A stretch of DNA of 64,000 nucleotides from Octopus vulgaris (GCA_951406725.2 OX597836.1:27032001-27096000), one strand, 5' to 3'. Shown: positions 9,001 through 12,000, counted from the first letter of the stretch. The notes: generated from the letters alone by a model not told the origin. Translations and numbers: made by a program.

Positions 9001-12000
9001 TTCAGATAAATATTGGTGATGCTGGTAGTATCTTTGAGAGAAAACAAATGATAATACATCAAATTAAGGACTCTTGGAGCAAGTATAACCTTGAGAAAGG
9101 AGTGGAGGGCATCAAAGAACTGTCTTACAAGTAAGAATTTTTATTTTTTTCCATTTTGGTGTATCAGTGGAAGAGAAACTGAGAAAAAATGTATAAATTC
9201 TTAAAATTTTTTTTTTATAAAGCCAAAACAAGTTATAAGAAAGAATATAAGTTAATGATTTGTGCTTTTACATTGTACTTCAATATTTTGGGTTTAATTG
9301 CTCTTCTTCAGGATACATTGGAATACTAGGTAAAAACACAAACCATCAACCTGTATTATTTCTATGATCGATGCCAGTGCCACCTGACTGGCTACCATGC
9401 TGGTGGCATGTAAAAAGCACCATTCAAGCATGGTCATTGCCAGTGCTGCCTGACTGGCTCCCATGCCAGTGACATGTAAAAAGCACCCATTACACTCACG
9501 GAGTGGTTGGCGTTAGGAAAGGCATCAAGCTGTAGAAACATTGCCAGATTGGATTGGAGCCTGGTGCAGCCTCCTGGTGTACCAGTCCTCAGTCAAACCG
9601 TCCAACCCATGCCAGAATGGGAAGCGGACGTTAAACAATGATGATGATGATGATGATGATGATGATGATGAACTTGCATTGTTTTGGCTTTATAAGCAAA
9701 AACTCTGTGTGTGTGTGTGTGTGTGTGTGCACGCGCATGGGTGTGTGTGTTTAGGAGCAAATGTGACTCTGTGGTAAGAAGTACACTTTCCCAGCCCCTG
9801 ATTTACCTGTTCTTTTGTATGATGATTGTACAATAATTAGTCCTTTTACACTAATTAAAGATGGAGTTTGACGGTCTTTTTTCTTCTTTTGTCTTTTTAA
9901 ACATTCCTTTAGCCTTCCCCACTTCATAAATTTTGTTTGTCTTTTAGGAAGAAGAAAACCTTAAGTGCCAAAATGAGACTGCCCAAAGACCTGATTCCTT
10001 TGTCATACGATATAAAAGTCCAACCAGAAATTTATGGTGGTGACCCAACAAAATTCTACTTCCACGGGACCGTTCAGATGCACATAATATCTCTAAAACC
10101 TGTTAGGACTATTACCTTCCATGCAGACAATTTGGAAATTTCAAACTTAACTGTATACACAAACAATGAAATATCATCCCGTGTTCCAATTCTGTCCACA
10201 TCCATTGATAAAGAAAAGCAGATGTTTAACATTCTTCTTGGAACAGAAATTGCTGCCAACACCAGTGTCACAGTGAAATTAAACTTCAGGGGTGACCTGA
10301 AGAAACAACTGAGTGGTCTCTACCTTAGTTCTTATTACAAAAGAGGAAAAGAGGTGTAAGTATTTGTTCCTTCTTTATTCTAAAGAAAAAAAAAAATTAT
10401 TGTTGTTGAAACCCAGATCAGCCTTAACAAGGCTAACAAATGATAAAAGCCACTCCTGTTCTAACGATTGTGTCTCTGTTGTACAATGTAAAGGGTTCAT
10501 TATTTGCATTATTTACATTATTTACATTTGACGGATATTTGCCCTCATCTTGTTTGTTGTTAACACAACGTTTCGGCTGATATACCCTCCAGCCTTCATC
10601 AGGTGCCTTGGGGAAATTTCGAACCTGGGTTCTCATTTAATTGGTCTGAAGAAGGCTTGTTAAGATATTACAGCAATGCATGTATTCAGTCCTTGAATTA
10701 ATATATATGGAAGCACTCCGTCGGTTACGACGACGAGGGTTCCGGTTGATCCGAATCAATGGAACAGCCTGTTCATGAAATTAATGTGTAAGTGGCTGAG
10801 CACTCCACAGACACGTGTACCCTTAACGTAGTTCTCGGGGATATTCAGCGTGACACAGAGAGTAACAAGGCCGGCCCTTTGAAATACAGGTACAACAGAA
10901 ACAGGAAGTAAGAGTGAGAGAAAGTTGTGGTGAAAGAGTACAGCAGGGATCACCACCATCCCCTGCCGGAGCCTCGTGGAGCTTTAGGTGTTTTCGCTCA
11001 ATAAACACTCACAACGCCCGGTCTGGGAATTGAAACCGCGATCCTATGACCGCGAGTCCGCTGCCCTAACCACTGGGCCATTGCGCCTCCACGAATTAAT
11101 ATCTAGACCAACGCATAACCATGCATTATCAATCCTGTGGGTTACAAGCTCTCATAAGTGACCCACTATAATGGATTTCAACTGATCAATTACTCATATC
11201 GAATCAATTGGGTTACAAAGTATTTGTGTATTATTTGCTGGCTTGGTGGGGTTACAGGATGTTCCACTGAACAAGTGGGCTACAAAGACAAGTAACCCAG
11301 TGGGTTACACCAATCTGTGGGTTAGAACATGTATATGAGCATGTATGTGTGTATGAGTGTATATGTGTGTGTGTGTGTGTGTGTATGAGTGTGTGTATAT
11401 ATAAGTATGTGTGGGTATATATGTGTATATATATGTGTGTATGTGTGTATATGTATATGTGTGCATGTATGTATATGTGTGTGATTATATGTGTATGTAT
11501 GTGTGTGTGTATGTATATATATGTGCGTGTGTGCATGTATATATATATATACGTATGTGTGTGTGTTTGTGTATGTATATATTGTATTACTTGTTTGAAA
11601 TGACACAATAGGTTACAGTGGCTTACAATGGTACCATTTGTTATTTATTTACTAAGACAATGAGTCACAGAACATAACAATGTAGGTTTTTCAAGACATT
11701 AGATCGTCTTCTTCAAATCTCTGCCTCAAAAAACTTGAAAAACCCCTCCAGGTGAAATAAATTCCAAAAGACACCATTTCCATTCTGTTTCAGATATTTG
11801 GCTACAACCCAGTTTGAACCAACGTCTGCCCGAAAAGCCTTCCCCTGTTTTGATGAACCTCAGATGAAGGCCAAATTCAATGTGAAGATTGTCAGAAAGA
11901 AGCATTACAAGTCCATATCTAACACCAATGTGAAGAGCAAGGTGGAACTGGAGTAAGGTTTTTTACCATTTTCTCAAATAGTTGCCATTATATATGATGA

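What the first reader, a model, noticed from the sequence alone, without database searches (positions are those of the whole stretch)
10497..10637. Dispersed repeat family carries an intact minimal hammerhead ribozyme
Seen on the - strand (10607-10562): stem I GGCAC/GTGTT, core CUGAUGA plus one extra A, stem II GGCUG/CAGCC, GAAA, palindromic ACGU as stem III, and cleavage triplet GUU. Four family copies occur in 64 kb (8770, 10562, 15382, 36403). Known: minimal type I hammerheads with palindromic stem III characterise Penelope-like elements and metazoan non-LTR retrozymes, and cleave mainly as dimers. Inference: a high-copy ribozyme-bearing non-autonomous retroelement.
Basis: partly seen in the sequence, partly recalled or inferred. 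Interest (0 to 1): 0.8.

Follow-up and report, generated by a model that had tools for sequence, protein, structure and literature searches.

The report
tRNA-headed Penelope-type ribozyme SINE in octopus
This abundant repeat, from what is likely an octopus genome, joins a tRNA-like front end to a minimal hammerhead ribozyme motif (intact in one of four local copies, predicted but not shown to self-cut) and likely spreads by borrowing the copying enzyme of Penelope retrotransposons, making it a variant of known ribozyme-bearing mobile elements.

Summary
The hammerhead is real and at the stated place (10562-10607, minus strand). Stem I has 5 bp and stem II has 6 bp (one more than reported). The core, extra A, ACGU palindrome and GUU triplet are as described; 0 of 300 shuffled windows gave such a motif. 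Public contigs show the intact letters in 76-85% of depth at two broken sites. The unit is about 300 nt: tRNA-like head (A and B boxes), microsatellite, hammerhead body, optional tail of about 33 nt. Three of four loci carry an inverted, 5'-truncated copy head-to-head, lying upstream of the tRNA head, and the tail sits on exactly one end: hallmarks of Penelope-like elements (PLEs). Best reading: a SINE-like element likely mobilised by PLE machinery, with a ribozyme probably off in monomers. Relatives are named Octopus records. Minimal PLE hammerheads, retrozymes and schistosome tRNA-hammerhead SINEs are known. This combination was not found in 9 paper searches, but repeat libraries were not searchable. 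No autonomous partner, cleavage or transcription was shown.

The parts
10562..10607 (-). Copy B: intact minimal type I hammerhead (stem I 5 bp, core plus extra A, stem II 6 bp, palindromic ACGU, GUU; predicted cut 10567/10566)
10498..10637 (-). Copy B body, 5'-truncated (no head), tail-less; 141 nt into an intron, antisense to the host gene
10645..10657 (+). 13-nt inverted match to the hammerhead core next to the 5' end of B; possible small inverted fragment (weak)
   Evidence: 3 of 5900 overlapping control windows score as high
10486..10492 (-). Flank heptamer that is the reverse complement of the element's terminal repeat, 5 nt beyond the tail-less end of B
8687..8870 (+). Copy A: microsatellite, spacer and body; hammerhead 8770-8815 with G12 lost; tail-less
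8588..8689 (-). Inverted 5'-truncated copy at locus A, carrying the tail of about 33 nt (8588-8620)
15303..15721 (-). Copy C: head truncated in the A box (15653-15721), expanded microsatellite, body (hammerhead 15382-15427, core kept, stem II weakened), partial tail
15722..15766 (+). Inverted 5'-truncated tail-less copy abutting the head of C
35986..36539 (+). Copy D: longest copy; tRNA-like head 35986-36072 (A box 36003, B box 36048), microsatellite, body (hammerhead 36403-36448, broken), tail
36157..36390 (.). Unrelated high-copy repeat inserted later into D, with an exact 19-nt target duplication (36138-36156 and 36391-36409); not part of the family
   Evidence: (joints 36143 to 36399)
35922..35986 (-). 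Inverted 5'-truncated tail-less copy abutting the head of D

Best explanation
This is a dispersed repeat of about 300 nt made of a tRNA-like head, a microsatellite and a Penelope-type minimal hammerhead end; it is likely transcribed by RNA polymerase III from the head and likely copied into new sites by the reverse transcriptase-endonuclease of an autonomous Penelope-like element. Shown: the anatomy, the nested 5' truncations, head-to-head inverted 3' copies lying upstream of the head, and the tail on one end only. Inferred: (1) Pol III makes a monomer RNA. (2) A PLE protein binds the 3' roughly 120 nt, cuts A/T-rich DNA on both strands and primes a cDNA from each broken end; one runs far, the other aborts, and the two join head-to-head. 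(3) The hammerhead is mostly off in the monomer (no stem III of its own, and a competing hairpin covers the cut site), so uncut RNA is usually copied and the head survives; cutting would need a second RNA or the PLE protein.
For: Hammerhead anatomy matches the PLE minimal type described in PMC4209133: helix I 4-5 bp, longer helix II, a nucleotide between 9 and 10.1, G10.1-C11.1, palindromic 15.2-16.2, single motifs or opposite-strand pairs 100-700 bp apart. Inverted 5'-truncated copy at 3 of 4 loci, and the tail on exactly one end at 3 of 3 two-ended loci, as listed for PLEs in PMC8557442. A PLE protein cuts and extends both strands, prefers uncut RNA, and assists its hammerhead (PMC11167929). 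Head is part of the unit: both occurrences of the head in the window lead into the body, with the inverted copy outside the head; summed contig depth of head over 5' body is 0.78-1.23 in 3 of 3 runs that hold the family; 3 outside translations join head-like sequence to the body (P0019, P0049, P0083). Family majority keeps the core: G12 in 80-85% and the palindrome C in 76-83% of depth. Stem I pairing probability is 0.90-0.95 (terminal pair 0.48) when the RNA ends just after the cut site and 0.04 in the whole body, where a rival hairpin has 0.75. PLEs cover 6.83% of the O. vulgaris genome, with 30 recently active Penelope families (PMC13282606).
Against: No autonomous partner was found: no RT or GIY-YIG Pfam hit in 119 window frames, no RT among 10 longer hits scanned, and no genome was held. 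No contig was shown to bridge head and body; reads appear cut at the microsatellite and the inserted repeat flooded the tables. Summed depth is not copy number. The 3 bridging translations are 3 of 74 tested, with shuffle p of 0.005, 0.005 and 0.02 before correction, and 3 sister-family rows reached 0.01-0.045. The head has A/B boxes and a cloverleaf-like fold but no tRNA call by ARAGORN at default or Rfam; at relaxed score D gave one unassigned call plus an opposite-strand call, and C none. Four copies give no covariation signal (241 of 500 shuffles as high). The double-hammerhead dimer (-21.3 kcal/mol) is not favoured over two monomer folds (-23.0) or the computed alternative (-28.6). Transcription and cleavage were not shown.
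Confidence: 0.65

Rival explanations
1. The copies are scattered monomers of a non-LTR retrozyme whose tandem source arrays lie elsewhere; multimeric RNA is cut by dimeric hammerheads, circularised and copied by PLE enzymes. This partly overlaps the best reading.
For: Retrozymes are argued to be non-autonomous PLE derivatives with many monomer offspring (10.64898/2026.07.22.740005). A related family shows head-to-tail units of about 41 codons in 8 of the translated hits. Contig depth steps up 2.4-4.0 fold from the hammerhead bin to the bin just past the cut site, and 2 of 3 inverted copies start about 4 and 13 nt after it.
Against: 0 of 4 window loci are tandem. The copies are colinear truncations of a head-first unit, not permuted at the cut site, and 4 of 4 forward copies run across the cut site. 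Retrozyme hammerheads are mostly canonical type I (PMC7229834). The depth step may come from inverted copies, related families or local divergence of D.
Confidence: 0.15
2. The bodies are truncated ends (pseudo-LTRs) of an autonomous PLE that inserted into the microsatellite tails of an independent tRNA SINE; head and body are separate elements.
For: PLEs show microsatellite insertion bias and heavy 5' truncation (PMC8557442). Only 2 of 4 copies have the head. No contig was shown to bridge the microsatellite.
Against: Inverted copies lie upstream of the head at C and D, not at the head-body joint. A, C and D share the same spacer after the microsatellite. No head without body in the window. 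Head and 5' body depth are near 1:1. No forward copy extends into coding sequence.
Confidence: 0.12
3. An ordinary LINE-driven tRNA SINE that carries the hammerhead as a dead passenger captured from an old PLE.
For: tRNA-like head and a short 9-nt repeat near the 3' end. A candidate 12-nt target duplication at locus A (10 of 12 identical). 3 of 4 local hammerheads are damaged.
Against: Duplicated inverted 3' copies and a one-ended tail are PLE features; LINE twin priming inverts without duplicating the 3' end (own knowledge). No target duplication seen at C or D. The family majority keeps the core.
Confidence: 0.07
4. The hammerhead likeness is chance within an ordinary repeat.
For: No Rfam hit. 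The folding z-score of the 61-mer is -0.03. No covariation among four copies.
Against: 0 of 300 shuffles gave the strict motif. All four hallmark details of PLE minimal hammerheads are present. The PLE-type insertion structure is independent evidence.
Confidence: 0.01

Closest known systems
Minimal type I hammerheads of Penelope-like elements (PMC4209133; parts 1-2 of 4 read)
   Same: Short helix I, longer helix II, extra nucleotide before 10.1, G10.1-C11.1, palindromic stem III; dispersed single motifs and opposite-strand neighbours.
   Different: There the motifs sit in pLTRs of coding PLEs or are read as truncated PLEs; here they follow a tRNA-like head in a non-coding unit of about 300 nt. 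The text read does not mention tRNA, molluscs or cephalopods.
Schistosome Sm-alpha / Sj-alpha SINE-like elements (passages in PMC6765202 and PMC2770079; original papers not seen)
   Same: tRNA-derived, apparently Pol III-transcribed, high-copy SINE-like repeat carrying a hammerhead.
   Different: Those carry canonical hammerheads (per PMC4209133) that cleave in vitro and often stand in tandem. This one has the minimal PLE form, is dispersed, and shows PLE inversion and tail signatures.
Metazoan non-LTR retrozymes (PMC7229834, passages; 10.64898/2026.07.22.740005, part 1 of 5 and passages)
   Same: Non-coding, 170-400 nt, type I hammerhead, proposed PLE-dependent; monomers occur.
   Different: Defined by tandem repeats and circular RNA. 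No tandem copy of this family at the 4 window loci; no tRNA head described in the passages seen.
Poseidon PLE of Anolis (PMC11167929; parts 1-2 of 4 read)
   Same: Hammerhead about 110 nt before an A/C-rich 3' end, optional tail, A/T-rich targets, ribozyme that needs protein.
   Different: Autonomous and coding, in tandem; no Pol III head.
Non-autonomous Chlamys PLE derivatives such as MRC1 (PMC8557442, passages)
   Same: Non-coding elements sharing a 3' end with PLEs.
   Different: Green alga; that clade lacks canonical hammerheads; no tRNA head mentioned in the passages seen.

Membership tests
PLE-type minimal type I hammerhead | Conserved core C3-A9 and G12-A14, A15.1-U16.1, H17 | tested here: met
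   Copy B; family majority at G12
PLE-type minimal type I hammerhead | Extra nucleotide between 9 and 10.1; G10.1-C11.1; helix I 4-5 bp; long helix II; palindromic 15.2-16.2 | tested here: met
   against the list in PMC4209133
PLE-type minimal type I hammerhead | Compensatory changes in the stems | tested here: inconclusive
   4 copies: 1 two-sided change, 241 of 500 shuffles as high. Translations hint at U-A here (6 of 11) versus C-G in a sister family (10 of 48 intact, many apparently CpG-decayed)
PLE-type minimal type I hammerhead | Self-cleavage as dimer or with protein | not testable with these tools
   Needs an assay; only contigs were available
Penelope-like element (autonomous) | ORF with PLE reverse transcriptase and GIY-YIG endonuclease | tested here: not met
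   No such Pfam hit in 119 frames (116 of the 272 plus 3); unit only about 300 nt
PLE-mobilised non-autonomous element | 5' truncation with adjacent inverted 5'-truncated copy | tested here: met
   3 of 4 loci clear, the fourth weak
PLE-mobilised non-autonomous element | 30-40 nt tail often on one end only | tested here: met
   About 33 nt; on one end at 3 of 3 two-ended loci; tail translation in 10 of 45 non-sister hits
PLE-mobilised non-autonomous element | 3' end shared with an autonomous PLE of the same genome | not testable with these tools
   No genome held; protein searches found no RT-linked hit
tRNA-derived SINE | 5' head with A and B boxes, tRNA-like fold | tested here: met
   Boxes at 36003 and 36048, cloverleaf-like fold of D (box patterns recalled); no default ARAGORN or Rfam tRNA call
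tRNA-derived SINE | Head and body form one fixed unit | tested here: met
   2 of 2 heads in the window; depth near 1:1; 3 outside translations; no direct contig bridge shown
tRNA-derived SINE | Pol III transcription | not testable with these tools
   Run X1 is only guessed to be RNA and holds contigs
tRNA-derived SINE | LINE-derived 3' tail and target-site duplication | tested here: inconclusive
   3' end is PLE-like; one candidate duplication at A (10 of 12), none seen at C or D; no LINE library to compare
Non-LTR retrozyme | Tandem head-to-tail repeats with a hammerhead in each unit | tested here: not met
   0 of 4 loci in the window; the rest of the genome untested; a sister family does show tandems
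Non-LTR retrozyme | Circular RNA intermediates | not testable with these tools
   No raw RNA reads were offered

The most novel reading that the evidence does not exclude
An undescribed class of tRNA-derived SINE that parasitises Penelope rather than LINE enzymes, abundant in octopus genomes. Its junctions may also record the endonuclease's rule: 3 of 4 tail-less ends meet a flank holding the reverse complement of the element's own terminal heptamer 5-6 nt away, as if one motif is cut both in the target and in the new copy, trimming the tail. Many thousands of short insertions would then be a ready data set for the unsolved PLE integration mechanism.
Probability: 0.35. Interest if true: 0.75.

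Novelty: new variant of a known kind. Interest (0 to 1): 0.5.

Why it matters
The hammerhead alone is ordinary for an animal genome: thousands of such motifs per genome are on record. What adds value is the chimeric unit. SINEs are normally tied to LINEs; a tRNA-headed element with Penelope-type ends would extend that partnership to a third retroelement class and link schistosome hammerhead SINEs, retrozymes and PLEs. Because the unit is short and abundant, both junctions of each insertion can be read at once. That makes open questions on PLE integration (inverted copies, the one-ended tail, the role of the ribozyme) testable by counting. Copies also appear as first exons in two Octopus gene models.

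Tried and rejected
No genome was held for the window, so no genome-wide count. Rfam: 0 hits at gathering score; only microsatellite-driven or chance hits at E up to 10. ARAGORN default: 0 genes. Exact-motif scans found nothing in metagenome contigs, prokaryote genomes or viral contigs. Earlier findings of this scan: 4 look-ups, all empty. The run search used a stretch with a long microsatellite, so shares of 0.15-0.19 are no evidence; run X21 laid 1 contig and was set aside. The single read-laying run was flooded by the inserted repeat, so loose ends of this family were not displayed. P0104 (538 aa, clustered with a hit) is an unrelated NADH dehydrogenase subunit, and P0032 is an EGF-repeat chance hit; both were dropped, as were the cluster companions P0003-P0005, P0102 and P0103, before the counts (P0001 also). 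I first read the palindrome at 35986-36003 as a junction fold-back; P0019 shows it in another copy, so it is likely the element's own 5' end. The frame open through the body was tested as a possible PLE ORF start: none of the 97 hits is long enough to be a PLE protein, and 0 of 10 scanned had an RT domain. Thermodynamic folding does not favour the double hammerhead. The paper on dimer cleavage of PLE hammerheads (PMC5785218) is not held.

Full report
Observation. The motif is present on the minus strand at 10607-10562. It has a 5-pair stem I, the CUGAUGA core, one extra A, a 6-pair stem II with an 8-nt loop, GAAA, the ACGU palindrome and a GUU triplet; the predicted cut is between 10567 and 10566. 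A minimal type I descriptor found 2 sites in the window, this one and the copy at 15382. Of 300 dinucleotide shuffles, 2 gave a loose hit and 0 a strict one. Generic measures do not see it: the folding z-score is -0.03 and Rfam has no hammerhead hit. Only copy B is unbroken: A (8770) and D (36403) lost G12, D also lost the palindrome C, and C (15382) keeps the core with a weakened stem II. Laid on D, contigs of 3 of 4 public runs (two organisms by code) show the intact letter in 80-85% of depth at G12 and 76-83% at the palindrome C. Both sites are CpG positions, so decay after insertion is the likely cause (inference). The stem II site at 36418 was not among the rows shown.

Context. The window is repeat-rich animal DNA. 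Pfam finds exons of an M1 aminopeptidase gene on the plus strand; copy B starts 141 nt into an intron and is antisense, so it could not cut that pre-mRNA. Translations of the repeat occur in records named Octopus sinensis (P0001) and Octopus bimaculoides (P0002, P0019). The genus is therefore likely Octopus; the species was not determined.

The real unit. Copies C and D extend 5' through a shared spacer and a microsatellite into a head of about 85 nt with A-box and B-box motifs (box patterns recalled) and, in D, a cloverleaf-like fold. ARAGORN at default and Rfam do not call it a tRNA. The 5' ends of D, C, A and B fall at successively later points of one linear template: head start, A box, microsatellite, body. 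After removing a later insertion at 36157-36390 (19-nt exact target duplication; bridged by contig joints), D is about 300 nt. Three lines tie the head to the body. Both heads in the window lead into it. Summed depth of head over 5' body is 0.78-1.23 in 3 of 3 informative runs (the tool warns that this is not copy number). A profile of the body's translation found 97 predicted proteins; of 74 with 6 or more residues upstream, P0019, P0049 and P0083 carry head-like sequence joined to the body (shuffle p 0.005, 0.005, 0.02, uncorrected; 3 sister-family rows scored 0.01-0.045). No contig was shown to span the microsatellite.

Penelope signatures. At A, C and D an inverted, 5'-truncated copy of the 3' end sits head-to-head with the main copy, and at C and D it lies outside the tRNA head. 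B has only a 13-nt inverted core match nearby (3 of 5900 control windows as good). A tail of about 33 nt is present on exactly one end at 3 of 3 two-ended loci. PMC8557442 (passages) and PMC8969392 (passages) list these features for PLEs. PMC4209133 (parts 1-2 of 4; supplements not read) describes the same hammerhead anatomy, opposite-strand pairs, no monomer cleavage and low dimer cleavage. PMC11167929 (parts 1-2 of 4) shows a PLE protein cutting and extending both strands, starting cDNA at two internal sites that define the tail, preferring uncut RNA, and being needed for hammerhead cleavage. PLEs make up 6.83% of the O. vulgaris genome, with 30 recently active Penelope families (PMC13282606, passages and supplement search); 'hammerhead' does not occur in its text or supplement.

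Mechanism. Shown: anatomy, truncation series, inversions, tail asymmetry. Inferred: Pol III transcription from the head; recognition of the 3' end by a PLE protein; priming from both ends of a break, with one long and one aborted cDNA joined head-to-head. A ribozyme downstream of a SINE head would cut the head off (a point made for other SINEs in PMC5786205, passages), so it must usually be silent. Folding agrees: stem I forms (0.90-0.95, terminal pair 0.48) when the RNA ends just past the cut site, but in the whole body a hairpin over the cut site wins (0.75 against 0.04). The double-hammerhead dimer is possible through the palindrome but is not the lowest-energy fold. A weak hint of some cutting: depth rises 2.4-4.0 fold from the hammerhead bin to the bin past the cut site, and two of three inverted copies start about 4 and 13 nt after it, while the third starts about 18 nt before it. 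Contigs cannot show RNA ends, and related families may add depth there.

Unexplained. At 3 of 4 tail-less ends the flank has the reverse complement of the element's terminal heptamer 5-6 nt from the junction (background 0.002 per position; noticed post hoc). A pattern-free test gave 0.007 and 0.034 for two ends and nothing for the third or for A. This may be an endonuclease site shared by target and element, or snap-back repair synthesis.

Against. No autonomous partner was found. Four copies give no covariation; translations only hint at a U-A to C-G change between this family and a sister family. Transcription and cleavage were not shown.

Comparison and novelty. It works like a PLE pseudo-LTR end placed behind a Pol III head. 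It is not an autonomous PLE (no ORF), and not a retrozyme by the tandem criterion in this window (PMC7229834, passages; 10.64898/2026.07.22.740005, part 1 of 5 and passages; its supplements are closed and may list related families). The nearest precedent is schistosome Sm-alpha/Sj-alpha, tRNA-derived SINE-like repeats with canonical hammerheads (passages in PMC6765202 and PMC2770079; original papers not seen). Nine full-text searches and passages of PMC4758252 and PMC10886601 turned up no description of a PLE-mobilised tRNA SINE or of octopus hammerheads. Subscription papers, PMC5785218 (not held), Repbase and Dfam were not searchable, and the consensus is probably present in octopus repeat libraries under some label.

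Verdict. New variant of a known kind; interest 0.5. The hammerhead alone would merit about 0.3; the tRNA head with Penelope-type junctions raises it.

Noticed in passing
window 3688-41596, plus strand: Exons of an M1 aminopeptidase gene (Peptidase_M1_N 9913, Peptidase_M1 18180-23587, ERAP1_C 30144-41596) and a further ERAP1_C-like frame at 3688, suggesting a tandem paralogue upstream.
   Followed up: no
window 8770, 36403 versus 10562, 15382: Both plus-strand copies (same sense as the host gene) have lost G12, while both antisense copies keep the core. Could reflect selection against self-cutting introns, but n is 4, the site is a CpG, and A may lie outside the transcript.
   Followed up: no
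P0001 (O. sinensis gene model), P0019 (O. bimaculoides dystrobrevin beta isoform X1): Both gene models begin with element-derived sequence that stops at nearly the same point, near a splice-donor-like site in the element's 3' repeats: possible exonisation or alternative first exons.
   Followed up: partly
P0008, P0010, P0012, P0015, P0023, P0025, P0033, P0068: A related hammerhead family (about 51 of 96 translated hits by a rough pattern) with a different upstream part; 8 hits show head-to-tail units of about 40 codons, a retrozyme-like layout that could form dimers in cis. Organism not named in the records looked up.
   Followed up: partly
window 10614-10626 (-) and equivalents: A second B-box-like motif with a small hairpin lies just 5' of the hammerhead in every body; it may be the remnant of an older tRNA head replaced by the present one.
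   Followed up: no
window 10486-10492, 15773-15779, 35910-35916: Inverted terminal heptamer in the flank of 3 of 4 tail-less ends; the flank at 15767 also looks like scrambled short pieces of the element's complement.
   Followed up: partly
window 8576-8587 and 8872-8883: Candidate 12-nt target-site duplication around the whole of locus A (10 of 12 identical).
   Followed up: partly
window 10699-11090, 28937-29315, 37879-38262; 36157-36390 and about a dozen relatives; 21740-21792; 45830-45885: Other abundant repeat families, several with tRNA-like A/B boxes; one is inserted inside copy D and reaches 20-150 times the contig depth of the hammerhead bin.
   Followed up: no
window 24439-25210, 26730-27284, 1745-2256: Tandem arrays of 62, 184 and 41 nt units; the hammerhead descriptor found no site in them.
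   Followed up: partly
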